NCBI GenBank assembly: GCA_023898625.1
Contig: CP060231.1
Coordinates: forward strand, 609,890 to 673,889
DNA length: 64,000 nt
Reading direction: 5' to 3'
Source: Candidatus Nomurabacteria bacterium
GTDB lineage: Bacteria; Patescibacteriota; Saccharimonadia; Saccharimonadales; JAGQNJ01
The notes below the pieces were generated by a model. The model made no database searches. It was not told where the DNA came from and saw nothing but the letters and a program-made list of their open reading frames with translations. Shown piece by piece: positions 6,001 through 52,532 of this stretch (position 1 is the first letter of the stretch; every line of letters starts with the position of its first letter). A program made the translations under genes and the position numbers.

Positions 6001-7791
6001 AACCCTCAGTCTACGGCACTACCAGCTCCCCTATCTAAAGTAGTCAAAGGCTCCTTCATGCAATCTCTAGTGAACTATACTGCTAACAATATACCTAAAC
6101 CCGTAGCTAAAGCCATTCCATACAGCCTACTCATACTTCTACTAGCTCTCTCAGCCCTCTATGGCTACTCTAGCTATCTAGAAAACAAAAGAAGACAAGC
6201 TCTCCAAGCTCTCATCACTCGCTTCAAATCTCTACTATCGGCTAGAGCTACCTTCCTACGTATTACCTCCCACTACATCAATACACCGATCACTAAGATC
6301 CAAGGAACCATAGAACTACTAGCTATGGGTACTACTTCAACCACAACTGCTAATACCACAACAGCAAGTACCAACACCACAAACAATAACTCAAGTACTA
6401 ACAATAACTCTACAGGCTCTAATACCAACCCTCCTACTAATACCAGCGCTACTCCTCCAAGTAACACTACTAGCTCTACCAGTAATCCAGGCACTACCTA
6501 CACCCCTAACTCTAGCTCCCAGACTAGTTCAGCTTCCGTAAACAGCTCTAGCAATCAGGCTAGTACCACCAGCTCCATCAGTTCTACTCCTAGCTCCCCT
6601 AATAGCATTAGTATACCTATTAATACTAACTCTAGCTCTCAGTCTGGTTCAGCTTCCGTGTTCACCTCAACCCTAGCCACTACAGCTACCACTCTAACTA
6701 TCCCAGAAGCCTCTATCGTAGCCTCCAAGTCAGCCATCAAGAGTCTCACTAACCATGCCAATGAACTACTAGATGAAGGACAATCCCTCACCGGAAGACA
6801 ACAAGCTAACATCAGAAACCTAGAACAAAGAAAAGGACTTAGCTTCCTAACCCATCCTTTCTTCTGGCTCCCAGTAGTAGTTATCTCTACCTTAGTAGTA
6901 CTACTCAACATCATCTTCATTCAAGCTGAACGCTATACCCCTACAGCTATTACTATTGCTTCTCAACTTATCCTAGGCTTCGTTGGTGTTATAGCTTTAG
7001 GTGTCAGCTACTACTTCTACCGTTCCTTCCAGTCCCAAAGACAAGCTCTACTAACCGAACAAGAAATAGAACAAGAGTTCAATGCTCGCCAAGCTAACTT
7101 CATAGCTGATGCCTACAACAAGCTCAACGATGACATCATAATCCTAGAAGGTGTCAGCCAAGACCTAGCTAAGTATCCTAAAGTCCGTAACTTCAACCAA
7201 GGCCTCAATGAACTAAAAGACATAGTCTCCCAACTAGAAAAACTCAGCAACCTATCTAAGCATGTCCCAGGACTGCAATACCACACCAACCTAAGCAGTA
7301 CTATATCTACTACCCTAACTAACCTCAGATCCCTAGCTGACCAACAGAACATCACTATAACTACCAACAACATCAAACCCAACCAAAACGTCAACATAGA
7401 AGCTAATGCCCTAACCCATCTACTGTCAGCTCCACTCAAGAACGCCATCTCAGCTAGTACTGCTGGCTCTAATATAGAACTATCCCAATCTATCCACAAA
7501 GCTAACAAATCTAGCCAGATAAATAAACCTAACACAGTAACCACTAACCCTAACAATACCAACCTACCTATCCAAATAACTATTACCGATCATGGCAAAG
7601 GCATACCCCCAGAACAACTAAACAATATCTTTACCCCATTCAACTCAGCCCATAGCCTAGAACACTTCACTGATACCGGACTAGGACTAGACCTCTACCT
7701 ATGCAAAGTAATTACCGAACAATACAACGCCAACCTAACCATCACCAGCCAACCAGGAGAAGGCACAACAGTGATAGTGGGGATGGGGTGA
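1..7791 (+). CDS. Giant membrane protein, 5'-truncated by the window edge: DUF285/BspA-like repeat ectodomain + FN3 + GLUG-like beta-helix with inserted NHL propeller + Pro/Thr linker + TM + histidine kinase (H-box, HATPase_c)
   Basis: Frame 1 is open from nt 1 (INHWDVSHVTDM precedes the first ATG at 34) to the stop at 7789-7791. Dozens of ~25-aa FNQPLxxW(D/N)VSNVTxMxxMF repeats. FN3-like segment ~3409-3675 (PPQNL..EVDWDDV..YKLEYK..YDIRVKAVD). GLUG-like text (FSGDFDGQGHTINNI, GGMFAQINGASISNVTL, VGGVAGLL). NHL blades ~4231-5045 (GNVYILDVGNKRVQKFDSNGNY). PT-rich 5815-5990. TM ~6115-6180. H-box FLRITSHYINTPITKIQG (His codon 6271-6273). TM pair ~6850-7020. N/G1/F/G2 boxes (LKNAISAS, DHGKGIP, IFTPFNSA, GLGLDL) ~7430-7700. 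Confidence 0.85.
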   Translation: MNHWDVSHVTDMYNTFLNANKFNQPLGSWDVGNVTNMGYMFANASSFNQPLGNWNVGNVTNMERLLLSATSFNQPLSSWNTSNVTNMTRLFANAGSFNQPLNSWNVNNVTDMSYMFTNTATYNQPLNSWNVSNVTNMTSMFFLSASFDHSLANWNVSNVTDMSQMFASALGLSVTNYDATLASWSSQALQNNVTFDAGTSKYCNSEAQRQSIITNFSWTINDAGKDCGSPPRPFIIQVKTDNPGTTSNNQFLIPTDSNYIYNYNVDCNNDGTPEYTNQTGDVTCTYGSTGQYDVAISGIFPYWNGGMGLEQLKIIDVKQWGDIDWQDMAYMFYEASNMTMSATDAPGLSSVTDMSWMFNGAASFNSNINSWDVSNVENMAGLFSGATSFNQPLNSWNVGNVYDLHSIFLDAISFNQSLDSWNVGSLLDARFMFFGAISFNQPLNSWDVSNVTTMESMFQDAIAFNQTLNSWDVSSVVNMSRMFQHATSFNQPLNGWDVSNTNNMMLMFFDATLFNQPLNSWDVGSVTNLQGMFGYATSFNQPLNNWSISSGANIDALFINATSFDQSLADWDVSDTLSLKGLFGDFIETRKAFFEQIYSLSYEQWDQPTKDNFWNMMSSIFGYAIDESSYTPDPSGLSTANYDATLISWSAQNLESSVVFDAGTSKYCTSEAQRQSIITNFSWTINDGGKYCGPPQRPFIIRVKTDNPGYTSNNQFLILADGNTLNYDVDCNNDGTPEYTNQTDDVTCTYGSPGEYDIAITGTFPHWYGNVDNNDQAKIIDVKQWGDIEWLDMSDMFNSAINITVFTATDIPDLSQVTSIRGMFSRATGFNTNINNWDVSNVTNMDDTFSLATSFNQPLNSWDVSNVTIMKATFAGASSFNQPLYSWDTSNVMYMNVMFANTDSFNQPLDSWDVSNVTDMTAMFANTDSFNQPLDSWDVSNVTDMSAMFANAVVFDQPLNSWDVSNVMDMTGMFSNTGLFNQSLANWNVSNVSVMDGMFSSATDFNQPLNSWDVSNVASMFGMFGDYVASARSDHEQGYGLPYDQWDQPTKDAFWGQMSIILGYPVDEQSYVPNPSGLSTANYDATLISWSAQNLESSVVFDAGTSKYCNSETQRQSIIDNYTWTINDAGKDCSIQPPQNLVGTPHTKSIEVDWDDVTGANHYKLEYKLTSSSTWTEYTNNTISGSFLEITGLEASTSYDIRVKAVDSSNDESDWSDTLTISTLAQQTYHITDCQELQSLYVNPITYVTGDPYGRYLLDNDIDCTETSNWYWEGIDPEANIPSGFLAMVFSGDFDGQGHTINNIYQDTEYLTVGGMFAQINGASISNVTLNNFNRKIGAKEAFTITLPTGGVVVTYALSSTISNVEVKNLQATGESVGKLGGIVGTADSSTQITKSSVTGSVNLSGYTLDGRFDQPLDITNDNSGNVYILDVGNKRVQKFDSNGNYIMQFKAQDNSATYTPSSIAIDSSGFIYITDQTNRFVRKYDNNGIFQSQFGSSGSGDGQFYELNDIAVDSMNNILVADRVNSRVQKFDTNGSYISQFGSSGSGDGQFYDLSKLVLDSTGNIYTLESNNHRVQKFDTNGNFLQKFNTDTFADESFNTPVSLSIDNLGDIYITDSGNLKIRKFTNSGTYISDIGTETEVFAPYGILVNTSGDIVVSDIMRNSITRYSNTGVKQNSWGRYGSNTGADLFVGGVAGLLVNSSIRESFTNISITVDINSGMNYDDGSAVAPLVALGYYSNINDSYSLGSIATNGGPVITAGIAGWMYTNVNINNSYSATDIIETNNILPESFGSPWPSDFSASSALVGMYVMPDVVINNSFFAGSLQSNIPIRSLVSMAMTGNPTGPLPNTINVYYDQTKSGVNKCIGLPIDMNTASFLPTIDSDCHPINTDGSQPNYFKNNSTNPPLNQWNFSTIWKTNCTNYPDFVGSTNCNPSNPPENPGNGNPPTTPTTPTTPTTPTTPTNPPKTPSTTKPPTPSTPTTPTESDTPPSSSNNQYYSNPQSTALPAPLSKVVKGSFMQSLVNYTANNIPKPVAKAIPYSLLILLLALSALYGYSSYLENKRRQALQALITRFKSLLSARATFLRITSHYINTPITKIQGTIELLAMGTTSTTTANTTTASTNTTNNNSSTNNNSTGSNTNPPTNTSATPPSNTTSSTSNPGTTYTPNSSSQTSSASVNSSSNQASTTSSISSTPSSPNSISIPINTNSSSQSGSASVFTSTLATTATTLTIPEASIVASKSAIKSLTNHANELLDEGQSLTGRQQANIRNLEQRKGLSFLTHPFFWLPVVVISTLVVLLNIIFIQAERYTPTAITIASQLILGFVGVIALGVSYYFYRSFQSQRQALLTEQEIEQEFNARQANFIADAYNKLNDDIIILEGVSQDLAKYPKVRNFNQGLNELKDIVSQLEKLSNLSKHVPGLQYHTNLSSTISTTLTNLRSLADQQNITITTNNIKPNQNVNIEANALTHLLSAPLKNAISASTAGSNIELSQSIHKANKSSQINKPNTVTTNPNNTNLPIQITITDHGKGIPPEQLNNIFTPFNSAHSLEHFTDTGLGLDLYLCKVITEQYNANLTITSQPGEGTTVIVGMG
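2692..2841 (+). repeat. Two adjacent near-identical 75-bp (25-aa) DUF285-type repeat units inside the giant ORF
   Basis: 2692-2766 and 2767-2841 both read atgtttgcaaatacagactccttcaatcagccacttgacagctgggatgt.agtaa.gtaac.gatatg, with only a few mismatches. Larger modules also recur: NYDATLxSWS..SKYC..QRQSII..W(T)INDxGK at 526-684, 1921-2080 and 3244-3400; RPFIIxVKTDNPG..QWGDI at ~690-975 and ~2086-2370. Confidence 0.9.
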
Positions 7792-27648: not shown

Positions 27649-29493
27649 ATGAAAAACCTTCTAACGAAACTATCTATATCAACAAACAAACTAAAAACTA
27701 TAAACTACCTAATACTATCCCTACTATTCACCATAACCACCCTAATACCATTAACTACCAGCACAGCCAACGCCACACCACTACCTACTGATGTGCCAGA
27801 ACATGTTTGGACTAAGGGTAATGGAGATGGAGTATTCAGAAGCCCTAGAGGCATCACCACCGACTCCGCTGGCAATGTCTATGTGGCCGATAAGGGCAAC
27901 AACCGTATTCAAAAGTTTGATAGCTCCGGTACCTTCCTGGCCAAGTGGGGCAGTTATGGTTCGGCTGATGGTGAGTTTGATGGCCCTTCTGGCATCACCA
28001 CCGACTCCTCCGGCAATATCTATGTAGCTGAAATGTATAACAACCGCATCCAAAAGTTCAATTCCTCCGGCACCTTCCTAGCCAAGTGGGGCGCCTCTGG
28101 CTCAGGCGATGGGGAATTTGATCGTCCTTACGATATAACAACTGACTCTTCTGGTAATGTCTATGTAGTCGAAATGTATAACCACCGCATCCAAAAGTTC
28201 GACTCTAATGGCACCTTTCTTGCCAAGTGGGGCAGTAATGGCTCAGCCGATGGTCAGTTTAGCTATCCTGACGGCATTACCACCGACTCCTCCGGTAATG
28301 TCTATGTAGCCGATGCAGGTAACAGCCGCATCCAAAAGTTTGATAGCTCCGGCACCTTCCTAGCCAAGTGGGGTAGTAGTGGCTCAGCCGATGGGGAGTT
28401 TAGCTATCCTTATGGCATCACCACCGACTCCTCTGGTAATGTCTATGTAGCAGATGCTGGCAACCACCGCATCCAAAAGTTCAACTCCTCCGGCACCTTC
28501 CTAACCAAGTGGGGTAGTAGTGGCTCAGCCGATGGGGAGTTTAGCTATCCTTATGGCATCACCACCGACTCCTCCGGCAATGTCTATGTAGCTGATTCTG
28601 GCAACAACCGTATCCAGAAGTTCGATGCTAACGGCACCTTCCTAACCAAGTGGGGCAGTAATGGTTCAGCTGACGGGGAGTTTATTATTCCATATGATAT
28701 AACCACCGACTCCTTTGGCAATGTCTATGTAGCTGATACTGGCAACAACCGCATCCAAAAGTTCGACTCTAATGGCACCTTCCTAGCCAAATGGGGCACC
28801 CTTGGCTCGGCTGATGGTGAGTTTATTATTATGTATGGCGCAGGGCTACACATAGATAATTTTGACAATTTATATGTCTCCGAGTTCCTCAACAGCCGCA
28901 TCCAAAAGTTTGCCTATCCTAGCGAAGAACCTGAAACCCCAGAAGAATCTTCCTCCGACTCCGACGGTATCCCCGACACCATCGAAAACTCTGCCCCCAA
29001 CTCTGGCGATGCTAACAATGATGGTATAGCCGATAGTACTCAAGCTAATGTAGCTAGCTATGTTAACCCAGTAACCAATAGCTATGTAGTACTCCAAACA
29101 TCCAGTGAATGTAGTATCACTACCACTACTACAACTAGTGAAGATAACCTAACTATAAAAGACTCTGGCTATAACTATCCAGTAGGACTAACTAACTTCA
29201 CTACTGACTGTAATACCCCGGGCTTTACTGCTACCATAAATCTCTACTACTACAACCTAGATAGTACTAACTATGTACTAAGAAAACATAACCCTAACAA
29301 TAACTCTTTCCTTACTATAGCTAACCCTACACTAACTAACCTAACTATAGACAATAAACCAGTAACCAAAGTAACCTACCAAGTTACTGACGGACAACAA
29401 CTAGACATAGACAACACCACTAACGGAACCATAGTAGACCCAGTAGGCCTAGCTACACTAGCTGTAGGAAGTCCTAATACGGGGTTGAGATAG
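27649..29493 (+). CDS. Secreted NHL-repeat (beta-propeller) protein with acidic DxDG linker and C-terminal beta-rich domain
   Basis: 614 aa. Signal/TM LILSLLFTITTLIPLTTSTANA. Eight copies of ..GITTDSSGNVYVAD.GNNRIQKFDSSGTFLAKWGS.GSADGEF... Then SDSDGIPDTIEN..GDANNDGIADSTQANV. Confidence 0.85.
   Translation: MKNLLTKLSISTNKLKTINYLILSLLFTITTLIPLTTSTANATPLPTDVPEHVWTKGNGDGVFRSPRGITTDSAGNVYVADKGNNRIQKFDSSGTFLAKWGSYGSADGEFDGPSGITTDSSGNIYVAEMYNNRIQKFNSSGTFLAKWGASGSGDGEFDRPYDITTDSSGNVYVVEMYNHRIQKFDSNGTFLAKWGSNGSADGQFSYPDGITTDSSGNVYVADAGNSRIQKFDSSGTFLAKWGSSGSADGEFSYPYGITTDSSGNVYVADAGNHRIQKFNSSGTFLTKWGSSGSADGEFSYPYGITTDSSGNVYVADSGNNRIQKFDANGTFLTKWGSNGSADGEFIIPYDITTDSFGNVYVADTGNNRIQKFDSNGTFLAKWGTLGSADGEFIIMYGAGLHIDNFDNLYVSEFLNSRIQKFAYPSEEPETPEESSSDSDGIPDTIENSAPNSGDANNDGIADSTQANVASYVNPVTNSYVVLQTSSECSITTTTTTSEDNLTIKDSGYNYPVGLTNFTTDCNTPGFTATINLYYYNLDSTNYVLRKHNPNNNSFLTIANPTLTNLTIDNKPVTKVTYQVTDGQQLDIDNTTNGTIVDPVGLATLAVGSPNTGLR
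27823..28920 (+). repeat. Tandem 141-bp (47-aa) NHL repeat array, about 8 copies, high nucleotide identity
   Basis: caaccg.at.caaaagtt recurs at 27900 and 28041, with period 141 across the array. Confidence 0.9.
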
Positions 29494-29520
29494 AGCAAGA
29501 TAAAACCATAAAAAGCTATT

Positions 29521-29702
29521 CTCTGAGGACTGTCCTCATAAAGAGGGAAAATATAGTCTCTGAGGACTGTCCTCATAAAGAGGGAAAATATGGTGTAGTA
29601 TGTTTTTGGTGGATTCCTGAGAGATTGGTCTCTGAGGACTGTCCTCATAAAGAGGGAGAATATGGTGTAGTATATTTTTTTGGTGGACTACTGAGAGATT
29701 GG
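29521..29702. repeat. Intergenic tandem repeat (one 36-bp short unit + two 72/74-bp units), each carrying the 13-bp palindrome GAGGACtGTCCTC
   Basis: Palindrome at 29525-29537, 29562-29574 and 29634-29646. The long units 29557-29628 and 29629-29702 share tctctgaggactgtcctcataaagaggga.aatatggtgtagtat..tttttggtgga...ctgagagattgg. Confidence 0.9.
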
Positions 29703-34055: not shown

Positions 34056-36722
34056 ATGCATTACTCCACACGTATCTCTCCCCATGCTAATATATACCTA
34101 ATGTCAGAAAATCATTTATCTCGCCAAGGTGCTCAATTCCTCCATCAGCAATACAGTACACTACATCAATCAGACCCAGTCAATCAAGAACAAATAAGAA
34201 GAGCTAGAAGACTAAGCCATGATCTAGAGGATTCCTTTCTACCAGAAGATATAACTGAGTCTGAAGCTGTAAGTACTATTCCAGCTCACGAACTAGATTC
34301 AGAAGTACACACCAAGCCTATAGATAAAATAGATGACTGGATGAAAGTACTAGAACGTACTCATCAAGGTCATCGTGATGACCCAAGAGTACTAGAACGT
34401 ATTAAGAATAGTTACCATAGACAATATGTTATCAAGCCAGAGCAAGTTCCAGAGTCTGCCTTTGCACTAGAAGCTCAAATAGCCAGGAATATGGGTTATG
34501 GTGATATACCAATAACCGATGAGTTCAGACAAGCTAAAACAAAAGAAATTATCTCTAACCAAGAAGAAAGCCTAGATCGTTGGGTAGACTATCTTTCCAG
34601 TCCTGATGCTGTCTACCCAATGTGGCTTAAGTACTGGGCATTTACTAGCATTACTAAAATGGGCAAACTAGAAAAGAACACAACAACTGATGAACATGGA
34701 GTAGAACACGAAACAACTCGCTTTGCTAGACGAACAGAAGATACTGTATCTCCATTCCCACCACTCAACCCCAGAGCTCTAGCTTTAACCCTTTCAGCTA
34801 TTGAAGCTAAGGCTAGCCAAAGAGGAATACCTAAGAAAGAAAGACAGCCAATCGACAATACTAGTACTAAGCTAAACGACAGTGACTTTGCTCAACTAGT
34901 ATCTTCTGAAAGCTTCTCTAAGTTGTATGCTCAGTTCTTATCTGAACTACCAGCCTATTCAACTGAAGGACTTAGAGAAACCAGAGGACAATGGGTTAAG
35001 TATGATCAAGGTAGTGATGCCCAACCCTTAGTAGATAGCCTAGAAGGTCACCCCCTAGAGTGGTGCACAGCAGGTATAGAAACTGCCAGGAATCAACTAT
35101 CTACAGGTGACTTCTATGTTTACTATTCTATTGACCAAGACGGTAACCCAACAATACCTAGAGTAGCTATTAGGATGCAAGATAGCTCTATAGCCGAAGT
35201 AAGAGGCATAGCCCCCGACCAAGAAATAGATCCATTCATTGCTGATGTGGTAAGCGAAAAGATGCAAGAATTCCCAGACGGTGAACAATACCAAAAGAAA
35301 GCTAGCGATATGAAGCGACTCACCGAAATCGATGAACGTAAGGCCGGTGGTAGTGAACTAACAACAGAGGACCTAAGATTCCTCTACGAAATAGACAATC
35401 CAATTAATGGCTTTGGCTATGAAAAAGACCCAAGAATCGAACAACTACTACAAGACAGAGACACTCGCGCTGATCTTTCAATGCTTCTTGACATACCACC
35501 ACAACAAATTAGCTTAACCCGGGAAGAAGCCCTCAGTGGAACACCAGAACAACCAATCGTTTACCATTATGGAGGCCTTGATCTCTATAGCCTGACCAGT
35601 GCCGAAGGACTAACCCTACCAAACAGTGTTGGTGGATACCTTGATCTCCACAGCCTGACCAGCGCCGAAGGACTAACTCTGCCAAACAGTGTTGGTGGAA
35701 GCCTTGATCTCTATAGCCTGACCAGCGCCGAAGGACTAACCCTACCAAACAGTGTTGGTGGAAACCTTGATCTCCACAGCCTGACCAGCGCCGAAGGACT
35801 AACTCTACCAAACAGTATTGGTGGAGGTCTTAATCTCTCTGGCCTGACCAGCGCCGAAGGACTAACCTTGCCAAATAGTATTGGTGGAGGTCTTAATCTC
35901 TCTGGCCTGACCAGCGCCGAAGGACTAACCCTGCCAAATAGTATTGGTGGAGGTCTTAATCTCTCTGGCCTGACCAGCGCCGAAGGACTAACCCTGCCAA
36001 ACAATATTGGTGGAGGTCTTAATCTCTCTGGCCTGACCAGCGCCGAAGGACTAACTCTGCCAAACAGTGTTGGTGGAAGCCTTGATCTCTATAGCCTGAC
36101 CAGCGCCGAAGGACTAACCCTACCAAACAGTATTGGCGGAAGCCTTAATCTCTCTAGCCTGACCAGCGCCGAAGGATTAACCTTGCCAAACAGTATTGGT
36201 GGAAGCCTTGATCTCTATAGCCTGACCAACGCCGAAGGACTAACCTTGCCAAGCAGTATTGGCGGAGGCCTTTACTTCCATAGGCTGACCAGCGCCGAAG
36301 GACTAACCTTGCCAAGCAGTATTGGTGGAAGCCTTAGTCTTTATAGCCTGACCACCGCTGAAGGATTAAACTTACCAAACAGTATTGGTGGAGACCTTAG
36401 TCTTTATAGCCTGACCACCGCTGAAGGATTAACCTTACCAAACAGTGTTGGTGGAAGCCTTGATCTCTCTGGCCTGACCAGCGCCGAAGGACTAACCCTA
36501 CCAAACAGTATTGGTGGAAGTCTTTATCTCACTAACCTGACCAGCGCCGAAGGACTAACCCTGCCAAGCAGTGTTGGTGGAGACCTTGATCTCTATAGAC
36601 TGACCAGAGCCGAAGGACTAACCCTACCAAACAATATTGGTGGATACCTATATTTGAAGAGTCTGACCTACACTGAAAATGAATCTCTCCGCCAAGCCAG
36701 ACCAGACCTAAGGATTATCTAG
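34056..36722 (+). CDS. Large repeat protein: ~500-aa unassigned N-terminal region + about 17 tandem 21-aa LRR-like repeats
   Basis: 888 aa (alternative start ATG 34101). C-terminal half is LxLxxLTSAEGLTLPNSIGGx reiterated. I saw no signal peptide or TM. Confidence 0.8.
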   Translation: MHYSTRISPHANIYLMSENHLSRQGAQFLHQQYSTLHQSDPVNQEQIRRARRLSHDLEDSFLPEDITESEAVSTIPAHELDSEVHTKPIDKIDDWMKVLERTHQGHRDDPRVLERIKNSYHRQYVIKPEQVPESAFALEAQIARNMGYGDIPITDEFRQAKTKEIISNQEESLDRWVDYLSSPDAVYPMWLKYWAFTSITKMGKLEKNTTTDEHGVEHETTRFARRTEDTVSPFPPLNPRALALTLSAIEAKASQRGIPKKERQPIDNTSTKLNDSDFAQLVSSESFSKLYAQFLSELPAYSTEGLRETRGQWVKYDQGSDAQPLVDSLEGHPLEWCTAGIETARNQLSTGDFYVYYSIDQDGNPTIPRVAIRMQDSSIAEVRGIAPDQEIDPFIADVVSEKMQEFPDGEQYQKKASDMKRLTEIDERKAGGSELTTEDLRFLYEIDNPINGFGYEKDPRIEQLLQDRDTRADLSMLLDIPPQQISLTREEALSGTPEQPIVYHYGGLDLYSLTSAEGLTLPNSVGGYLDLHSLTSAEGLTLPNSVGGSLDLYSLTSAEGLTLPNSVGGNLDLHSLTSAEGLTLPNSIGGGLNLSGLTSAEGLTLPNSIGGGLNLSGLTSAEGLTLPNSIGGGLNLSGLTSAEGLTLPNNIGGGLNLSGLTSAEGLTLPNSVGGSLDLYSLTSAEGLTLPNSIGGSLNLSSLTSAEGLTLPNSIGGSLDLYSLTNAEGLTLPSSIGGGLYFHRLTSAEGLTLPSSIGGSLSLYSLTTAEGLNLPNSIGGDLSLYSLTTAEGLTLPNSVGGSLDLSGLTSAEGLTLPNSIGGSLYLTNLTSAEGLTLPSSVGGDLDLYRLTRAEGLTLPNNIGGYLYLKSLTYTENESLRQARPDLRII
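35571..36670 (+). repeat. 63-bp tandem repeat array (about 17.5 copies), coding
   Basis: ttggtggagg recurs at 35818 and 35881 (period 63). Several central copies (35818-36006) are almost identical. Confidence 0.92.
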
Positions 36723-36901
36723 AAGACGTATTTCTTAAGGTATCAATATCCTTAAAGTCCTCATTGTTCTTCTTAATGCTTAAGTTGTAATAATTCAATC
36801 ACCAAGTTATAGCTTTTCATAAGTATTATATATAGAAAAGTACGTATAGAAAAACACAAGCAATTAGGGTATAATAACTGATACATAAAAGAACGGAGGG
36901 A

Positions 36902-48351: not shown

Positions 48352-49986
48352 ATGAATAAGATTGCTCACTATTTGCAACAGCACCTTGTTGGTGAAGTTT
48401 TGTCATCTGGGGATGTGCGACGACACTTCTCTACGGATGCAAGCGTATTTACATTGACGCCAACGGTGGTTGCATATCCACGTAACGAAAACGATATTCG
48501 AAAGGTATCACGATTTACGTGGCAGTTAGCCGAGCGAGGTCGAGTTATTCCGGTTACGGCTCGCGGAAAGGGGAGTGATCAATCTGGTGCAGCCATCGGT
48601 AATGGCATTATGCTGGTATTCCCCGCACACATGAACAGGATCTTAGAATATGATGGCAAGAGTGGTGATGTTACTGTTGAGACTGGCATTAATTACGGAA
48701 GATTGCAACAAACTTTGTATACTCACGGACGATTCTTGCCACCATATCCATCTTCCCTAGATTACTCAACTATTGGTGGAGCAATTGCCAACAATGCGTC
48801 TGGCGAAAAGTCTGTTAAATATGGAACAACGCGTGATTACGTTAGAAGCATGCGTGTAGTTTTAGCTAATGGCGAGGTCATCGAAACAAGGCGTCTTTCT
48901 AAAAGAGAACTTAACAAAAAAATGGGTTTATCGAGTTTTGAAGGAGAAATTTACCGTAATCTAGACAAGTTAATAGAAGAAAACAAAGAAATCATTAAAC
49001 AGATTAATATAAATGTATCAAAAAACTCTGCTGGGTATGACATTGCTAGCGTAAAGCATAAGGGATCTTTTGATTTAACCCCTTTGATAGTTGGGTCACA
49101 GGGAACGTTAGGTATAGTGAGTGAGGCTACCTTAAAAACAGCCCCATATAATCCACATACTTCGCTGATAGCTGGATTTTTTGAAGATATCAACTCTGCT
49201 AAGAATTCCGTAATTGATTTGATGAAGCAATCAGAGAAGCCCAGTGCAATAGAAATGATTGATCAAAATTTGCTTAATTTTCTTGATGAAAATTATCCAA
49301 ACCAGCTAAAAGGAATAGTAAATAAGCCATTCCATAAAATAGTTTTGCTGATTGAATTTGATACTCACAATGAACGGGCTCGAAAGAAGTCTGCCAAAAG
49401 GGCTATAAAGATTCTAAACAAATATCATGCAGAGTATCAATTAGAAACCGAACCTGATGAAAGAGAAAAGTTGTGGAAGATACGCCACAGTGTTGCAACA
49501 GCTATTTCTCATAATTACGACCATAAAAAAGCTTTGCCAATTGTAGAAGATGGCATAGTTCCAATTGCTAAATTTTCAGAATATATCGACGGAGTTTACA
49601 AAATATTTGAAAAGCACAAACTAAAAATAGCATTGTGGGGTCATGCGGGCGATGCTAATTTACATATGCAACCCTTTTTGGACTTGAGCCAAATTGGCGA
49701 TCGCCAGAAAGTGTTTAGGATTATCGACGATTACTACAATCTTGTAATTGATTTAGGCGGTAGTACAAGCGGAGAGCATGGCGATGGACGTCTTAGGGCT
49801 CCATATTTACCAAAGCTTTATGGGCAACAGGTGTATGAGTTGTTTAGAAAGATTAAGGCAATTTTTGACCCATACAATACCCTTAACCCGGGTGTCAAGA
49901 TTGATGTATCTATAGAGGATATTAAACCGTTATTGCGCGATGAATATTCCCTAAACCATTTGTTTGACCATTTACCTAGATCATAA
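48352..49986 (+). CDS. FAD-linked oxidase (GlcD / D-lactate dehydrogenase-like)
   Basis: 544 aa. FAD_binding_4 motifs (RGKGSDQSGAA, STIGGAIANNASGEKSVKYGTTRDYV) and C-terminal GHAGDANLH, SGEHGDG. Confidence 0.85.
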   Translation: MNKIAHYLQQHLVGEVLSSGDVRRHFSTDASVFTLTPTVVAYPRNENDIRKVSRFTWQLAERGRVIPVTARGKGSDQSGAAIGNGIMLVFPAHMNRILEYDGKSGDVTVETGINYGRLQQTLYTHGRFLPPYPSSLDYSTIGGAIANNASGEKSVKYGTTRDYVRSMRVVLANGEVIETRRLSKRELNKKMGLSSFEGEIYRNLDKLIEENKEIIKQININVSKNSAGYDIASVKHKGSFDLTPLIVGSQGTLGIVSEATLKTAPYNPHTSLIAGFFEDINSAKNSVIDLMKQSEKPSAIEMIDQNLLNFLDENYPNQLKGIVNKPFHKIVLLIEFDTHNERARKKSAKRAIKILNKYHAEYQLETEPDEREKLWKIRHSVATAISHNYDHKKALPIVEDGIVPIAKFSEYIDGVYKIFEKHKLKIALWGHAGDANLHMQPFLDLSQIGDRQKVFRIIDDYYNLVIDLGGSTSGEHGDGRLRAPYLPKLYGQQVYELFRKIKAIFDPYNTLNPGVKIDVSIEDIKPLLRDEYSLNHLFDHLPRS

Positions 49987-50039
49987 CGTTAAAGTAGTTA
50001 TTTTGATATAATGAAATTTATCCTCATTTGAGTTTGTAT

Positions 50040-50126
50040 GTGCGAGTGGCGGAATCGGTAGACGCGCTAGCTTGAGGGGCTAGTGGGAGCAATCCTATGG
50101 AGGTTCAAGTCCTCTCTCGCACACCA
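50040..50126 (+). tRNA. tRNA-Leu (anticodon GAG), CCA encoded
   Basis: Acceptor GTGCGAG/CTCGCAC. Anticodon arm CTAGC-TTGAGGG-GCTAG. Long variable arm. T arm GGAGG-TTCAAGT-CCTCT. Discriminator A + CCA. Confidence 0.9.
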
Positions 50127-50138
50127 ATCAAAAGGTTT

Positions 50139-50846
50139 CTAGAATAATTGCTCAATATCTGTCTTTACTTTTTCTAATGTAGTTTTGTAGTTATACTCAT
50201 AGTTAGAGTATTTTGTTAATAATCTGCCGATGGCGAGAATGTCGGCTCCATGATCGATAGCCTCCTTTGGTGACATGGTTGTTGGGTGTTGATCAATGGG
50301 TTGGTTGTTGTATCTGATACCAGTGGCTATCACGGTAAAGTTGCCTATATTCTTGACTCGTTCTATCATTCCAACATTGCACATAATATCTGTTATTTGC
50401 TTGCGATGAGGAAGATATTCATTGGCCATAATAACCTCTTCTAGGAAGGGAACAATCAAATCATCATGATAATTTGGCATTGGTATAAATATACTCGAGT
50501 CATGATCCGTGGCATTAACCGCAGAAATTAAGGATTGATGACCAGAAAGGGCGGAAACGCTCAACTTTTTGACACCTCGACTAAATACGCTATTTGCAAC
50601 CTGAGGTATTTGATCAGAATCCAAGACATAATTTGTATCTAGCCAGGTTTCTATGTCGTGATCTCGTAGCATTCTATGAATTGACCAAGGTCTATCAAAT
50701 TGCATTAGTTCTAAGCCTAACTTGAAGGCGCGTGTTTCTTTGCCAATGTCGCTTGCAATTTTGCCCAGATTTTGGATGTCTGATTTTGCATCAATAACTA
50801 CTATAATTTTATTTGCTATAGGATCAAGAGCCTCAAAGTTCCTCAT
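50139..50846 (-). CDS. Orotidine-5'-phosphate decarboxylase-fold protein, divergent (catalytic Lys apparently not conserved)
   Basis: 235 aa. IIVVIDAKS...AFKLGLELM and C-terminal GADILAIGRLL resemble PyrF/KGPDC family. The DxKxxD region reads WLDTNYVLDSDQIP (no Lys). Confidence 0.5.
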   Translation of the reverse strand: MRNFEALDPIANKIIVVIDAKSDIQNLGKIASDIGKETRAFKLGLELMQFDRPWSIHRMLRDHDIETWLDTNYVLDSDQIPQVANSVFSRGVKKLSVSALSGHQSLISAVNATDHDSSIFIPMPNYHDDLIVPFLEEVIMANEYLPHRKQITDIMCNVGMIERVKNIGNFTVIATGIRYNNQPIDQHPTTMSPKEAIDHGADILAIGRLLTKYSNYEYNYKTTLEKVKTDIEQLF

Positions 50847-50956
50847 GTCTGATTTATATCAGACGTTATCTTGATTGTAAAAATATTGTGTTATATATCA
50901 CAGATAACTAGTTGTGCATGACAGAGCATTAAATACTACCAATATAATCATTTTCT

Positions 50957-50964
50957 GGTATAAT
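50957..50964 (+). promoter_or_regulatory. Extended -10 (TGgTATAAT) upstream of tRNA-Val
   Basis: tctggtataat lies with TATAAT at 50959-50964, 13 nt before the tRNA 5' end. The same tctggtataat precedes tRNA-Gly. Confidence 0.45.
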
Positions 50965-50977
50965 CGTTCGGAGATGT

Positions 50978-51054
50978 GGGCGCTTAGCTCAGCTGGCTAG
51001 AGCACTTCGTTTACACCGAAGGGGTCGGGGGTTCGAGTCCCTCAGCGCCCACCA
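50978..51054 (+). tRNA. tRNA-Val (anticodon TAC), CCA encoded
   Basis: Acceptor GGGCGCT/AGCGCCC. D arm GCTC-AGCTGGCTA-GAGC. Anticodon arm CTTCG-TTTACAC-CGAAG. T arm GGGGG-TTCGAGT-CCCTC. Confidence 0.92.
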
Positions 51055-51091
51055 CATTAAGCACCTTTCAGTGATGATTAAACTATCATGT

Positions 51092-51167
51092 GGCTCTTTA
51101 GCTCAGTTGGTAGAGCAGAGGCCTGAAGAGCCTTGTGTCCCCAGTTCGAGTCTGGGAGGAGCCACCA
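51092..51167 (+). tRNA. tRNA-Phe (anticodon GAA), CCA encoded
   Basis: Acceptor GGCTCTT/AGGAGCC (one G-U pair). D arm GCTC-AGTTGGTA-GAGC. Anticodon arm GAGGC-CTGAAGA-GCCTT. T arm CCCAG-TTCGAGT-CTGGG. Confidence 0.92.
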
Positions 51168-51451
51168 AAATCTATATGATTTTTTGGAGATACCCAGACG
51201 AGAACTGGGATCTGCGGAGCAGACAGTTCGGTCATGACGAACACGCGCAGATGCTTGCATCGAGCATGTGATGAAATGGACCGCAAGGTCGCCCTGGGAG
51301 GAGCCACCAAAATCTATATGATTTTTTGGAGATACCCAGACGAGAACTGGGATCTGCAGAGAAGACAGTTCGGTCATGACGAGCACGCGCAGATTCTTGC
51401 ATCGAGCATGTGAGGAAATGGACCGCAAGGTCGCCCTGGGAGGAGTCACCA
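51168..51451 (+). repeat. Two tandem 142-bp units directly 3' of tRNA-Phe, each ending with a copy of the last 16 nt of the tRNA (CTGGGAGGAGCCACCA)
   Basis: Unit A 51168-51309 and unit B 51310-51451 differ at 6 of 142 positions. A third start (aaatct) at 51452-51457 then diverges into the tRNA-Gly promoter. The units are visibly more GC-rich than other intergenic DNA and contain local hairpins (CCCAG-ACGAGAA-CTGGG; GTTCG-GTCATGA-CGAAC; GACC-GCAA-GGTC). Confidence 0.9.
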
Positions 51452-51456
51452 AATCT

Positions 51457-51464
51457 GGTATAAT
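51457..51464 (+). promoter_or_regulatory. Extended -10 (TGgTATAAT) upstream of tRNA-Gly
   Basis: tctggtataat with TATAAT at 51459-51464, 12 nt before the tRNA-Gly 5' end. Confidence 0.45.
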
Positions 51465-51476
51465 ATATGTCAATAT

Positions 51477-51552
51477 GCGGGTGTAGCTCAGTTGATAGAG
51501 CGCTTCCTTGCCAAGGAAGAGGCCACGAGTTTGAGTCTCGTCACCCGCACCA
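51477..51552 (+). tRNA. tRNA-Gly (anticodon GCC), CCA encoded
   Basis: Acceptor GCGGGTG/CACCCGC. D arm GCTC-AGTTGATA-GAGC. Anticodon arm CTTCC-TTGCCAA-GGAAG. T arm ACGAG-TTTGAGT-CTCGT. Confidence 0.92.
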
Positions 51553-51591
51553 ATCAGACTCAAATGATTTTCAAGCAGTATTGTTTCTAAC

Positions 51592-51617
51592 AAATGAGTC
51601 GTGCGAGGCTCATTTTT
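51592..51617 (+). terminator. Rho-independent-type terminator after the tRNA cluster
   Basis: AAATGAG (51592-51598) / 10-nt loop / CTCATTT (51609-15), running into a T tract. It overlaps the first ATG of the next ORF, arguing for a downstream start. Confidence 0.5.
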
Positions 51618-52205
51618 GTTAAGATATATATAATGAAGATGCTTATTATTGAGGGAATAGCGACAAGCGGCAAATCCAGTCTAATAAAGAAATTGACCGA
51701 GCTGCTAGGCGAGAAAAGGCTACTCATATTCGGTGAACCAGCTACCCATATTCCAATTATGGAAAAAACAGACGAGCTGCACGTTGAGTTTTTCAAATCG
51801 CTCATAGACGATGCTGTCAAAGCTGATGCTGACCTTGTGATATTTGATAGGCTACACTACACGCAGGCATATCGAGCAAAAGCAAGCTTAGTTGAATACG
51901 CTGAAATTGATGATTTACTGTCAAAACAAGATACGCTTGTGGCATATTTGCGGGTAGATGAGAGTGCAATTGCCGAACGGGTCAGACTTGCTACTGAACA
52001 TCGTGATAGGACGTGGGGCGATTATGTACTTACTAAGGGCAAGACTTTTGATGAAATTGCCGAGTATTATGTCGCTCAACAGAGTAGTCAGCTTCAACTA
52101 CTTAGTCAGACTAAGCTCGCTTATAAAGTATTCAACACTACTCAACACAACTACCAAACCATAGCTGAACAGATTATCAACGACTGGTACAAAAAGCCTG
52201 CCTGA
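51594..52205 (+). CDS. P-loop kinase-like protein (thymidylate/deoxynucleoside kinase-like fold; function uncertain)
   Basis: ORF from 51594, but the probable start is ATG 51633 or 51639 (MKMLIIEGIATSGKSS: Walker A close to the N-terminus, as in dNK/TMK-type kinases). Confidence 0.6.
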   Translation: MSRARLIFVKIYIMKMLIIEGIATSGKSSLIKKLTELLGEKRLLIFGEPATHIPIMEKTDELHVEFFKSLIDDAVKADADLVIFDRLHYTQAYRAKASLVEYAEIDDLLSKQDTLVAYLRVDESAIAERVRLATEHRDRTWGDYVLTKGKTFDEIAEYYVAQQSSQLQLLSQTKLAYKVFNTTQHNYQTIAEQIINDWYKKPA

Positions 52206-52532
52206 AAATGCTTGGCGAAACTGTTCTCATAAATTAGGTATATAGACGGCGGAGTGTAGAATGGCAGGATAAAGAGTGACCCCGCCCTGTACTTGGGCAT
52301 AATAATAGGCATAGCTGTTCAATGGTTTGAGACTCTTTAATGGTCATATGCTAAGTTGTCGTCTAATCGGGATTATTCGGCTCAGTGTTTGAGCTTATAG
52401 TCCTCTTGAGCAAATGTAGCTGACGTTTGAAGTGTGTCAACTATGTTGCACTAAATCAGAACAAAAAGATTTTGTAACAGTCTAGTTTGAACATTCAGAC
52501 TCATTTCGGGTCTTTTTTGTTATCATTAGATA

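What the first reader, a model, noticed from the sequence alone, without database searches (positions are those of the whole stretch)
51092..51476. Tandem 142-bp GC-rich units appended to tRNA-Phe, each regenerating the tRNA 3' end
Two 142-bp copies follow immediately after the CCA of tRNA-Phe(GAA), differing at 6 positions. Each terminates in CTGGGAGGAGCCACCA, which is exactly the T-stem 3' strand, the acceptor 3' strand, the discriminator and the CCA of the tRNA. The motif plus aaatct occurs a third time before the sequence diverges into the tRNA-Gly promoter.

The units are far more GC-rich than other intergenic DNA here. They contain stable local hairpins, including a T-arm look-alike (CCCAG-ACGAGAA-CTGGG) and a GCAA-tetraloop hairpin.

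Two readings are possible:
- Nested or decayed att-site scars of an element that integrates into the 3' end of tRNA-Phe, although no integrase is in the window.
- Co-transcribed, tRNA-processing-dependent small RNAs released by RNase P/Z-type cleavage at the tRNA-like ends.

One of the six substitutions (A->G at 51383 vs 51241) keeps the GTTCG/CGAAC hairpin pairable as G-U. Others break candidate stems, so structural conservation is not established.
Basis: seen in the sequence. Interest (0 to 1): 0.72.

Follow-up and report, generated by a model that had tools for sequence, protein, structure and literature searches.

The report
tRNA-linked repeat RNA in Saccharibacteria
The two 142-bp units after tRNA-Phe are a recently duplicated copy of a conserved, structured element found beside tRNA genes in Saccharibacteria, built like the 'tRNA-linked repeats' of E. 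coli, whose function has been unknown since 1978.

Summary
tRNA-Phe (51092-51167) is followed by two 142-bp units that differ at 6 positions. Each unit ends in a copy of the tRNA's last 16 nt; the second copy has one C>T change.

The units are not a private duplication. At least 27 other Saccharibacteria/Patescibacteria contigs carry a unit with the same 16-nt end after tRNA-Phe.

Units of the window's type have four parts:
- an antisense copy of the tRNA T arm;
- a split sense copy that pairs with it (helices A and B);
- two hairpins, P3 and P4;
- the tRNA 3' end.

Compensatory changes support the hairpins strongly: 20 of 31 pairs have changes on both sides, against 11.0 +/- 1.5 in shuffles (0/500).

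Copy number varies between metagenomes, with one unit in some contigs and two in others. I found no integrase and no viral match. Rfam has no match.

The closest known thing is the E. coli tRNA-linked repeat (TLR; RtT RNA), which I re-examined here and which shows the same design. Relatives carry similar elements after tRNA-Val, tRNA-Leu and tRNA-Gly, each copying its own tRNA.

The best reading is a TLR-type RNA that is co-transcribed and released by tRNA processing. The att-scar reading is poorly supported. Function remains unknown.

The parts
50956..50964 (+). TGGTATAAT, an extended -10-like box 13 nt upstream of tRNA-Val; putative start of the tRNA-Val/tRNA-Phe/unit transcript
   Evidence: Read from the sequence. 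The same 9-mer recurs before tRNA-Gly. The -35/-10 consensus scan did not call it. Its role as a promoter is inferred.
50978..51054 (+). tRNA-Val(tac)
   Evidence: ARAGORN; Rfam tRNA model, 67.3 bits.
51092..51167 (+). tRNA-Phe(gaa) with encoded CCA; its last 16 nt (51152-51167) are the repeated motif
   Evidence: ARAGORN; Rfam tRNA model, 65.9 bits; motif search.
51168..51309 (+). Unit 1, a TLR-like element of 142 nt
   Evidence: Tandem Repeats Finder; alignment of the two units; covariance model R1, 110.7 bits over 51192-51309.
51165..51187 (+). Weak A/T-only hairpin CCAAAATC-TATAT-GATTTT(TT)GG that includes the tRNA's CCA. It sits where relatives have a strong terminator-like hairpin.
   Evidence: Folds at -5.6 kcal/mol, z = -2.3. 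Relatives fold at -13 to -30 kcal/mol.
51193..51209 (+). Antisense copy of the tRNA-Phe T arm, CCCAGACGAGAACTGGG. CCCAG is the 5' strand of helix A and GAACTG (51202-51207) is the 5' strand of helix B.
   Evidence: Matches the reverse complement of the T arm at 15 of 17 positions (sequence). RNAalifold predicts helices A and B on a sequence-only alignment.
51212..51222 (+). Apical hairpin Ba, CTGC-GGA-GCAG
   Evidence: All 4 pairs covary in the family. In unit 2 one pair is broken by C>A at column 53.
51224..51229 (+). Sense copy of the T-stem 5' strand and start of the T loop (CAGTTC); 3' strand of helix B
51241..51269 (+). P3 hairpin: ACA-C-GC-GCA-GATG-CTTG-CATC-GA-GC-A-TGT, with a conserved internal loop and a CUUG tetraloop
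   Evidence: All 9 pairs covary across 24 units. The same module occurs in a tRNA-Val-linked element at L014:1972-2076(-).
51279..51290 (+). P4 hairpin, GACC-GCAA-GGTC
   Evidence: All 4 pairs covary: GACC/GGTC, GGAC/GTCC, GTCC/GGAC, GGGC/GCCC and GGC/GCC.
51294..51309 (+). Copy of the tRNA-Phe 3' end, CTGGGAGGAGCCACCA. CTGGG is the 3' strand of helix A; AGGAGCCACCA is left as a single-stranded tail.
51310..51451 (+). Unit 2, with the same parts shifted by +142. It carries helix-breaking changes at column 53 (Ba) and column 86 (P3d), and C>T in the 3' motif (column 137).
   Evidence: Alignment; model R1, 99.5 bits; consensus fold -32.3 against MFE -33.9 kcal/mol.
51456..51464 (+). TGGTATAAT, an extended -10-like box 12 nt upstream of tRNA-Gly
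   Evidence: Read from the sequence. Its role as a promoter is inferred.
51477..51552 (+). tRNA-Gly(gcc)
   Evidence: ARAGORN; Rfam tRNA model, 71.2 bits.
51588..51621 (+). Terminator-like hairpin followed by a T run, closing the tRNA cluster
   Evidence: Folds at -12.7 kcal/mol, z = -4.4.

Best explanation
Each unit is a tRNA-linked-repeat (TLR)-type element, a small structured RNA module embedded in the tRNA-Val/tRNA-Phe/tRNA-Gly cluster.

**Structure (shown)**
- An antisense copy of the tRNA-Phe T arm pairs with a split sense copy. This gives a closing helix A (CCCAG/CTGGG) and helix B (GAACTG/CAGTTC).
- Between the two halves of the sense copy sit two hairpins. P3 has a conserved internal loop and a CUUG tetraloop. 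P4 is a short hairpin.
- The last 11 nt, AGGAGCCACCA, are left as a free tRNA-like 3' tail.

**How it works (inferred)**
- The units are co-transcribed with tRNA-Phe. The window has no terminator between them.
- They are cut out by the enzymes that mature the neighbouring tRNAs.
- The tRNA 3' copy acts as the handle that forms the unit's 3' end. PMC8144298 proposed the same for the E. coli TLR RrB.

**Origin of the tandem pair (inferred)**
- The pair arose by unequal homologous recombination across the repeated tRNA 3' end. The units share a 64-nt exact stretch (51152-51215 and 51294-51357).
- One-unit and two-unit alleles coexist in nature (shown).

The cellular role of the RNA is unknown, as it is for most E. 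coli TLRs.
For: **The family exists**
- The 16-nt tRNA-Phe end is repeated 130-157 nt downstream in 12 species-level Saccharibacteria/Patescibacteria genomes.
- A unit-shaped pattern found 15 more metagenome contigs.
- Model R1 scores the window units at 110.7 and 99.5 bits, and finds the units with this architecture in 21 relatives' loci.

**The structure is supported**
- RNAalifold, run on a sequence-only MAFFT alignment, predicts helices A, B, Ba and P3.
- On that alignment 11 of 31 pairs have changes on both sides, against 5.4 +/- 1.3 in shuffles (0/500).
- On 24 units: 92.4% of cells are paired against 77.3% in shuffles; 20 of 31 pairs have changes on both sides against 11.0 +/- 1.5; the covariation score is 0.364 against 0.140 (each 0/500). 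Slid controls give at most 0.09.

**Same design as E. coli TLRs**
- The tyrT-tyrV locus has a 178-bp unit in 3.1 copies. Each unit ends in the tRNA-Tyr 3' end.
- The Rfam RtT consensus has a closing helix between an antisense copy and the tRNA-like 3' end, leaving ccaCCACCA free.
- PMC8144298 defines TLRs by position in a tRNA or rRNA operon, an 18-19 bp 3' end identical to the upstream gene, 1-5 copies per locus, read-through transcription and processing.

**It is general**
- Relatives carry such elements after tRNA-Val, tRNA-Leu and tRNA-Gly. Each copies its own tRNA's 3' end, and those inspected carry an antisense copy of their own T arm.

**Position in operons**
- In L028, L020 and L030, tRNA-Gly begins 3-17 nt after the unit's CCA.

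**Copy number varies**
- Two units: window, L001, L003, L041, L042.
- One unit: L039 and L040 (unit 1 body with T at column 137) and L005 (identical to unit 2).
Against: - I had no transcript data, so expression, ends and processing are all inferred.
- Folding of the window units alone is not significant (z = -1.4 to -1.65). The consensus fold of unit 1 is 3.3 kcal/mol worse than its minimum-energy fold.
- Outside helix A, G.U pairs (13) do not outnumber A.C pairs (11). Covariation therefore does not decide which strand is read, or whether the structure acts in RNA or in single-stranded DNA.
- Most relatives have a strong terminator-like hairpin between tRNA-Phe and the unit. Expression there would need read-through.
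- The large covariation test used an alignment fitted to the model.
- The loci were collected with patterns that require the repeat, so how common the element is among Saccharibacteria is unknown.
- Unit 2 carries helix-breaking changes and may be decaying.
Confidence: 0.65

Rival explanations
1. The units are DNA-level att-site scars, or miniature non-autonomous integrative elements. On this reading each unit was left or inserted by site-specific recombination at the tRNA-Phe 3' end, and the repeated 16 nt is the crossover core.
For: - The region downstream of tRNA-Phe is a hotspot for variable DNA in relatives. L012 has a 1.68-kb insert bounded by 3' end copies. L032 has 5.3 kb of accessory genes, and L022 and L015 have smaller inserts.
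- L029 has a 1267-bp repeat holding an APH-family (phosphotransferase, PF01636) gene between two copies of a unit.
- Arrays are heterogeneous. In L033 a complete unit of a different sequence lies next to the tRNA, and an older, decayed unit resembling L014's lies distal to it.
- Decayed tRNA-Phe 3' fragments lie further downstream in L029, L032 and L034.
- A large serine recombinase abuts tRNA-Gly in L028.
Against: - No tyrosine integrase, or any recombinase, lies next to tRNA-Phe or the units in the window or in the 30 neighbouring proteins scanned.
- Three unit-internal patterns gave no hits in viral contigs.
- Units have a constant modular architecture with compensatory changes in hairpins. 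Integrase arm sites and deletion remnants are not expected to show this.
- Elements after other tRNAs carry sense and antisense copies of their own tRNA, so they are not one mobile sequence with one target.
- The heterogeneous arrays can also be explained by ectopic homologous recombination between alleles.
Confidence: 0.15
2. The tandem pair is a plain, selectively neutral local duplication. The second copy, and perhaps both copies, has no function in this genome.
For: - Copy number is polymorphic, with one or two units.
- Unit 2 has three changes that break consensus pairs or the 3' motif.
- E. coli TLRs have had no demonstrated function for decades.
- The older unit in L033 has decayed.
Against: - A single unit is retained in every allele seen.
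- The family is conserved with covariation across many divergent lineages that have very small genomes.
- Neutrality may describe the extra copy, but it does not account for the unit itself.
Confidence: 0.15
3. The units encode a small peptide, by analogy with tpr inside the E. coli rtT repeat.
For: ORFs of 34-66 codons overlap the units, for example 51234-51413 on the + strand. E. coli annotates tpr within RtT.
Against: - The unit length of 142 nt is not a multiple of 3, so the reading frame shifts between copies.
- Relatives differ by many indels, and their substitutions are compensatory in helices rather than synonymous.
- PMC8144298 notes that the starvation phenotype first attributed to the tyrT TLR was later traced to a nearby ORF. 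That point applies only to E. coli.
Confidence: 0.02

Closest known systems
E. coli tRNA-linked repeats (TLRs), including the tyrT-locus RtT RNA (Rfam RF00391) and RrA/RrB/RrF downstream of 5S rRNA
   Same: - Both lie immediately downstream of a tRNA inside a stable-RNA operon.
- Unit lengths are similar: 142 nt here, 150-178 nt in E. coli.
- The 3' end copies the upstream gene's 3' end, including CCA.
- Copies occur in tandem, 1-5 per locus in E. coli.
- Many relatives have the gene-terminator-unit-terminator layout seen at rrnB.
- Both have an antisense copy of the T arm pairing with the tRNA-like 3' end to form the closing helix, leaving the CCA tail free.
   Different: - There is no detectable sequence homology. 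Rfam RtT does not hit the window or the relatives, and model R1 does not hit the E. coli locus.
- The shared 3' block is 16 nt here against 18-19 nt.
- The host is a Patescibacteria/CPR (Candidate Phyla Radiation) lineage, not Enterobacterales.
- The interior (P3 with a CUUG tetraloop, and P4) is specific to this family.
- Expression and processing have been shown for some E. coli TLRs but were not tested here.
attL/attR direct repeats of genomic islands and prophages integrated in the 3' ends of tRNA genes
   Same: Direct repeats of the tRNA 3' end lie downstream of an intact tRNA. Accessory DNA of variable content lies in the same region in relatives.
   Different: The interval is only 126 nt and encodes nothing. 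No integrase lies adjacent and no viral contig matches. The interval has a conserved secondary structure and an antisense T arm.
sRNAs derived from tRNA spacers and trailers, such as 3'ETS-leuZ in E. coli
   Same: An RNA made as a by-product of processing a polycistronic tRNA transcript (mentioned in PMC8144298).
   Different: 3'ETS-leuZ is a short trailer with no copy of a tRNA 3' end and no tandem repetition. Its sponge function has no evident counterpart here.

Membership tests
tRNA-linked repeats (TLR) as defined for E. coli (PMC8144298; Rudd 1999) | Located in a tRNA or rRNA operon, immediately downstream of the stable-RNA gene | tested here: met
   The units start at the base after the tRNA-Phe CCA, between tRNA-Phe and tRNA-Gly.
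tRNA-linked repeats (TLR) as defined for E. coli (PMC8144298; Rudd 1999) | The 3' end of the unit is identical to the 3' end of the upstream gene (18-19 bp in E. coli) | tested here: met
   Unit 1 matches at 16 of 16 nt and unit 2 at 15 of 16. Elements after tRNA-Val, tRNA-Leu and tRNA-Gly in relatives copy their own tRNA's last 15 nt. The block is 2-3 nt shorter than in E. coli.
tRNA-linked repeats (TLR) as defined for E. coli (PMC8144298; Rudd 1999) | One to five units per locus, in tandem | tested here: met
   The window has two units. One-unit and two-unit alleles occur in other samples.
tRNA-linked repeats (TLR) as defined for E. coli (PMC8144298; Rudd 1999) | [quoted passage not shown] | not testable with these tools
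   No expression data were available. The window has no strong hairpin between tRNA-Phe and the units. Relatives have a terminator-like hairpin on both sides of the unit.
Rfam RtT RNA (RF00391) | Score at or above the gathering threshold (45 bits) of the RtT covariance model | tested here: not met
   There is no RtT match even at E <= 10 over 49500-52500, or at E <= 1 in 10 relatives' loci. The same scan gives 133-138 bits on the E. coli units.
Rfam RtT RNA (RF00391) | Closing helix between an antisense copy of the T stem and the tRNA-like 3' end, with a free CCA tail | tested here: met
   RNAalifold predicts helix A (CCCAG/CTGGG plus flanking pairs). Some pairs show compensatory variants: AU in 10 units and GC in 4. 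The match is to the design, not to the sequence.
att sites of tRNA-targeting integrative elements | An integrase or recombinase gene adjacent to one of the repeats | tested here: not met
   Pfam scans of window neighbours and of 30 proteins around the units in relatives found only one recombinase. It is a large serine recombinase abutting tRNA-Gly in L028, not beside the tRNA-Phe units.
att sites of tRNA-targeting integrative elements | The unit sequence is present in a phage or mobile-element attP | tested here: not met
   Three unit-internal patterns of 23-27 nt gave 0 hits in IMG/VR viral contigs. The matching was exact only, so diverged elements would be missed.
tRNA, tmRNA and tRNA-like genes | Recognised by ARAGORN or by the models of the Rfam tRNA clan | tested here: not met
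   Neither tool reports a hit inside 51168-51451. The units lack a 5' acceptor strand.

The most novel reading that the evidence does not exclude
TLR-type elements may be a general class of structured RNAs embedded in tRNA operons, either ancient or evolved repeatedly, rather than an enterobacterial curiosity.

On this reading the Saccharibacteria family has a real function. It combines a 'T-arm clamp' (antisense copy plus split sense copy), a conserved P3 internal loop and a free tRNA 3' tail. The function would be tied to the cognate tRNA. Examples are a decoy or sensor for enzymes or toxins that act on tRNA 3' ends, or a regulator of tRNA-Phe maturation through its 12-17-nt complementarity to the T arm.

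A more remote variant is that the stacked 3' end copies act as a recombination platform that captures accessory genes beside tRNA-Phe.
Probability: 0.25. Interest if true: 0.8.

Novelty: new variant of a known kind. Interest (0 to 1): 0.55.

Why it matters
TLRs were first described in 1978. E. coli K-12 has 22 of them, and most still have no known function (PMC8144298).

This family is independent in sequence, shows covariation, and occurs in a reduced-genome CPR (Candidate Phyla Radiation) phylum. That has four consequences:
- The TLR design (antisense T arm, tRNA 3' end copy, tandem copies inside tRNA operons) is not confined to Enterobacterales.
- Comparative constraints now point to the parts under selection: helices A and B, the P3 internal loop with its CUUG loop, P4, and the purine-rich joiners.
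- At least one case (a tRNA-Val-linked and a tRNA-Phe-linked element sharing P3) suggests a common core joined to tRNA-specific ends.
- The element can be tested in cultivable Saccharibacteria.

There is also a practical point. Several metagenome contigs begin inside or beside these units, which may mark assembly breaks, and one-unit and two-unit alleles could be mistaken for assembly errors.

Tried and rejected
- **Rfam.** Scans of the region (E <= 10) and of 10 relatives' loci (E <= 1) matched nothing on the units.
- **Viral contigs.** Three exact-pattern scans gave 0 hits.
- **Integrases.** Pfam scans of flanking and inserted genes found only accessory or housekeeping families, plus one serine recombinase at tRNA-Gly in L028.
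- **Snap-back origin.** I considered a sense-antisense-sense copy of the whole tRNA 3' part, centred on the terminator hairpin. The region 5' of helix A shows no similarity to the antisense acceptor strand beyond chance (mean score 2.13 against 2.10 in shuffles). The antisense copy is therefore limited to the T arm, and I leave the origin open.
- **Strand or RNA-versus-DNA from G.U against A.C counts.** Inconclusive outside helix A, at 13 against 11.
- **Homology of the other tRNAs' elements to the tRNA-Phe model, with filters off.** Only the L014 tRNA-Val element is significant (31.6 bits). The rest share the design but not detectable sequence.
- **Kink-turn reading of the P3 internal loop.** Rejected, because the GA at the start of P3d forms covarying Watson-Crick pairs.
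- **Known ribozymes or tRNA-like RNAs.** No Rfam or ARAGORN support.
- **MAFFT alignment of all subtypes (A2).** It misaligned the 5' part, so I used a homogeneous subset (A3) and model-based alignment instead.
- **Literature.** Searches for a prior description in Saccharibacteria found nothing relevant. Bosl & Kersten 1991 is not held in the library.
Full report
**1. The observation**

ARAGORN finds tRNA-Val(tac) at 50978-51054, tRNA-Phe(gaa) at 51092-51167 and tRNA-Gly(gcc) at 51477-51552. Tandem Repeats Finder reports a 142-bp period, 2.1 copies, 96% matches and no indels over 51152-51453.

Unit 1 (51168-51309) and unit 2 (51310-51451) differ at unit columns 49, 53, 74, 86, 105 and 137. The 16-mer CTGGGAGGAGCCACCA is the T-stem 3' strand, the acceptor 3' strand, the discriminator and CCA. 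It occurs exactly at 51152 and 51294, and with one mismatch (GTC) at 51436. Shuffles expect 0.02 matches.

The units are 48-57% GC. Adjacent intergenic DNA is 27-31%. The window holds no other copy.

- Unit 2 ends in a 15/16 copy of the motif.
- The sequence after the third copy has one A fewer.
- The 'T-arm look-alike' is an antisense T arm (section 3).

**2. Whose genome, and is the unit private?**

The downstream 190-aa protein is encoded identically on contigs from many metagenomes and on GCA_020428435.1.

A scan of one genome per species asked for the 16-mer repeated 111-141 nt apart. It returned 12 MAGs, 11 of them titled Candidatus Saccharibacteria, Saccharimonadales, Saccharimonadia, Saccharimonadota or Patescibacteria, and one titled only 'bacterium'. 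In each MAG where the tRNA lies on the stretch held, the first copy is the end of tRNA-Phe. The spacing is 130-157 nt.

A metagenome scan with a unit-shaped pattern returned 15 more contigs. The unit is therefore a recurrent feature of tRNA-Phe loci in this phylum.

The collection patterns required the repeat, so I cannot say what fraction of Saccharibacteria has it.

**3. Anatomy**

Two types follow tRNA-Phe.
- *Class A* (L011, L013, L021) carries an antisense copy of the anticodon arm in a long hairpin, plus a longer sense copy of the tRNA 3' part.
- *Class B* is the window's type (L012, L014-L020, L022-L037).

Class B units have this order:
- In most species, a strong terminator-like hairpin whose stem includes the preceding CCA (for example CCAAAGAAAA...UUUUCUUUGG, -30 kcal/mol in L032). 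The window, L015, L020 and L030 lack it. The window has only a weak A/T hairpin of -5.6 kcal/mol.
- (CCCA)GAC-NN-GAACTGG, the reverse complement of the tRNA's T arm. L014, L016, L017, L033 and L036 match the antisense loop ACTCGAA exactly. The window matches at 15 of 17 positions.
- An optional small apical hairpin (CTGC-GNA-GCAG).
- The sense CCAGTTCG(G).
- A purine-rich joiner, GGYGRAG.
- P3, a hairpin with a conserved internal loop (RCA/GA) and usually a CUUG tetraloop.
- A GGAAA-like joiner.
- P4, a hairpin of 3-4 bp.
- CTGGGAGGAGCCACCA.

The antisense T arm pairs with both halves of the split sense T arm. Helix A joins CCCAG(AC) to (GT)CTGGG, and helix B joins GAACTGG to CCAGTTC. The result is a four-way junction, and AGGAGCCACCA is left single-stranded.

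**4. Is the structure real?**

RNAalifold, run on a sequence-only MAFFT alignment of 8 units (A3), independently predicts helices A, B, Ba and P3.

| Measure | A3, 8 units | A5, 24 units |
|---|---|---|
| Cells paired | 91.8% vs 84.2% shuffled (0/500) | 92.4% vs 77.3% shuffled (0/500) |
| Pairs changed on both sides | 11 of 31 vs 5.4 +/- 1.3 (0/500) | 20 of 31 vs 11.0 +/- 1.5 (0/500) |
| Cells changed on both sides | 20 vs 6.6 +/- 1.8 (0/500) | 99 vs 29 +/- 4.7 (0/500) |
| Covariation score | 0.301 vs 0.149 (0/500) | 0.364 vs 0.140 (0/500) |
| Best slid control | 0.083 | 0.09 |

A5 comes from covariance model R1, built from A3, which aligned the 24 units. In A5 every pair of Ba, P3 and P4 covaries. 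Examples for the apical stem of P3 (P3d): GAUG/CAUC, GGUG/CACC, AGAG/CUCU, AGAA/UUCU, GAAG/CUUC. Examples for P4: GACC/GGUC, GGAC/GUCC, GUCC/GGAC, GGGC/GCCC.

Helices A and B are mostly invariant, because they are copies of the tRNA. Helix A still shows AU in 10 units and GC in 4 at one pair.

Caveats:
- A5 is fitted to the model, and the sequences are related to each other.
- Single-sequence folding of the window units is unremarkable (z = -1.4 to -1.65). The consensus fold costs 3.3 kcal/mol for unit 1 and 1.6 for unit 2.
- G.U against A.C counts do not settle the strand, or RNA against single-stranded DNA.

**5. Closest known: E. coli tRNA-linked repeats**

I recalled the tyrT repeats and checked them directly. 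In E. coli K-12, tRNA-Tyr is followed by a 178-bp unit in 3.1 copies. Each unit ends in AATCCTTCCCCCACCACCA, the tRNA-Tyr 3' end.

Rfam RtT (RF00391) scores the units, and a further copy between tyrT and tyrV, at 133-138 bits. Its curated structure closes with GgGaaGG/CCuuCcC, an antisense copy paired with the tRNA-like 3' end, leaving ccaCCACCA free. Inside the unit, cUUCGAcc-aa-GGUuCGA is an antisense and sense T-loop pair. This is the same design as helices A and B here.

PMC8144298 summarises the class:
- There are 22 TLRs at ten loci, 1-5 per locus, in tRNA or rRNA operons.
- They have 18-19 bp of 3' identity to the upstream gene.
- At rrnB the layout is 5S-T1-TLR-T2.
- They are transcribed by read-through and then processed.
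- The authors suggest, for RrB, that the repeat is the RNase E processing signal.
- Apart from Hfq/CsrA binding by RrA/B/F in vitro, no function is known. An early claim of function was retracted.

The Saccharibacteria units are not members of Rfam RtT, and R1 does not hit E. coli. This is a shared design without detectable homology.

**6. The phenomenon is general within these genomes**

In the relatives' loci, a copy of the tRNA's own last 15 nt lies 119-175 nt downstream in these cases:

| tRNA | Loci with a downstream copy |
|---|---|
| tRNA-Val(tac) | 4 of 10 |
| tRNA-Leu(taa) | 1 of 5 (two copies) |
| tRNA-Leu(gag) | 1 of 8 |
| tRNA-Gly(gcc) | 2 of 15 |

Those I inspected for it carry an antisense copy of their own tRNA's T-arm region (a perfect 21-mer in L024, diverged copies in L014 and L020) and an insertion in the sense T loop.

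One of them, after tRNA-Val in L014, is hit by the tRNA-Phe model (31.7 bits, E = 3e-6). Its helix B is changed to GAACCC/GGGTTC, and its P3 (GAAG-CUUG-CUUC) is clearly homologous. This hints at a common core with tRNA-specific ends. The others are not significant with R1.

None of the window's other six tRNAs has such an element.

**7. Context and likely expression in the window (inferred)**

TGGTATAAT boxes precede tRNA-Val (50956-50964) and tRNA-Gly (51456-51464). A strong terminator-like hairpin follows tRNA-Gly (51588-51621, -12.7 kcal/mol, z = -4.4). Nothing terminator-like lies between tRNA-Val and unit 2. The units are therefore most likely transcribed with tRNA-Val and tRNA-Phe.

In L028, L020 and L030, tRNA-Gly starts 3-17 nt after the unit's CCA. 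RNase P cleavage there, together with maturation of the tRNA-Phe 3' end, would release the unit as a discrete RNA.

**8. The tandem pair and copy-number variation**

Contigs from other samples fall into three groups:

| Allele | Contigs |
|---|---|
| Two units, identical to the window except one extra change in L003 | L001, L003, L041, L042 |
| One unit: unit 1 body with T at column 137 | L039, L040 |
| One unit: identical to unit 2, different upstream context | L005 |

Fifteen further places resemble L039 in their neighbouring genes. They were not shown, so their unit number was not read.

The single-unit k141 contigs are unlikely to be assembly collapses, but read-level confirmation is needed.

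The pattern fits unequal recombination across the 64-nt stretch shared by the tRNA/unit 1 and unit 1/unit 2 junctions. The recombination may have been between two diverged single-unit haplotypes.

Relative to the family consensus, unit 2 carries helix-breaking changes at column 53 (Ba) and column 86 (P3d), plus C>T in the 3' motif. Unit 1 carries one change, at column 105.

**9. The att-site rival**

The region downstream of tRNA-Phe is a hotspot for variable DNA in relatives.
- L012 has 1.68 kb between the true tRNA end and a second copy.
- L032 has 5.3 kb, and L022 and L015 have smaller inserts.
- L029 has a 1267-bp repeat holding an APH-family (phosphotransferase, PF01636) gene between two units.
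- L033 stacks a new unit in front of a decayed one resembling L014's.
- Decayed 3' fragments lie further downstream in L029, L032 and L034.

The inserted genes are accessory or housekeeping: GDSL lipase, RibD_C, Ldh_2, a hydrolase, a Fic/Doc fragment, NUDIX, DUF6941 and APH. None is an integrase.

Ten further neighbouring proteins gave only a large serine recombinase abutting tRNA-Gly in L028. Viral scans were empty.

Taken with the conserved structure and the tRNA-specific sense and antisense copies, the units themselves are not scars. The repeated 3' ends may nevertheless promote ectopic recombination and turnover.

**10. Verdict**

The finding is real and more than a local duplication. It belongs to a family of structured elements that I found in neither Rfam 15 nor the paper library. 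The family has the defining layout of E. coli tRNA-linked repeats but lies in a very distant, genome-reduced phylum.

I rate it a new variant of a known kind. Mechanism and function remain inferred. Interest is moderate (0.55). It would rise if expression and a role linked to the tRNA were shown.

Noticed in passing
L014:1972-2076 (-), L016 downstream of tRNA-Leu(taa) c[7253-7340], L017 after tRNA-Val 289-365, L019 after tRNA-Leu(gag) and tRNA-Val, L020 and L024 after tRNA-Gly(gcc), L033 after tRNA-Val: TLR-like elements follow other tRNAs in relatives. Each ends in a copy of its own tRNA's 3' end. L024 (a perfect 21-mer), L014 and L020 (diverged) also carry an antisense copy of their own T-arm region. 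The L014 tRNA-Val element shares the P3 module with the tRNA-Phe units.
   Followed up: partly
L011:124-257 (-), L013:2408-2541, L021:5616-5748 (-): A second type of tRNA-Phe-linked unit (class A, about 134 nt). It has an antisense copy of the tRNA-Phe anticodon arm in a long hairpin, plus a sense copy from the variable loop to CCA.
   Followed up: partly
L028:638-2134 (-): A 498-aa large serine recombinase (Pfam Resolvase, Recombinase and Zn_ribbon_recom domains) overlaps the 3' end of tRNA-Gly, just downstream of the tRNA-Phe-unit-tRNA-Gly cluster. This is probably an element integrated at tRNA-Gly.
   Followed up: partly
L029:80-165 and 1347-1432: A 1267-bp direct repeat. An APH-family phosphotransferase gene lies between two identical copies of a unit, each preceded by a decayed tRNA 3' end (GTCCCTGTTAGAGTCCACCA).
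   Followed up: partly
L012:1-1860: A 1.68-kb insert lies between the true tRNA-Phe 3' end and a second copy of it, followed by a class B unit. The insert holds a DUF6941 gene and two unknown ORFs.
   Followed up: partly
L004:1-118: This contig joins the 3' end of a different tRNA (..CGAATCCTATATCGCCCACCA), a terminator hairpin and a GAACCG/GGTTCG-type unit 5' half to column 75 of the window's unit 1, inside the conserved P3 sequence. It is either an assembly chimera through the shared P3 module or a real recombinant.
   Followed up: no
window 29519-29702: The intergenic region between two + strand ORFs holds three copies of TCTCTGAGGACTGTCCTCATAAAGAGGGARAATAT, with an operator-like palindrome TGAGGACTGTCCTCA. 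Two of the copies continue into a further shared stretch, GGTGTAGTAT..TTTTTGGTGGA..CTGAGAGATTGG.
   Followed up: no
window 63-3086, 27757-28915, 35445-36752: Long in-frame tandem repeats, apparently inside large ORFs: 75-nt units (25 aa), 141-nt units (47 aa) and 63-nt units (21 aa; about 17-21 copies). These look like repeat-rich proteins.
   Followed up: no
L002, L006-L010 (contig ends): Several short metagenome contigs carrying the downstream 190-aa gene begin inside unit 1 (L002, L008) or inside tRNA-Gly (L006, L007, L009, L010). This suggests the repeat and tRNA cluster break assemblies.
   Followed up: no
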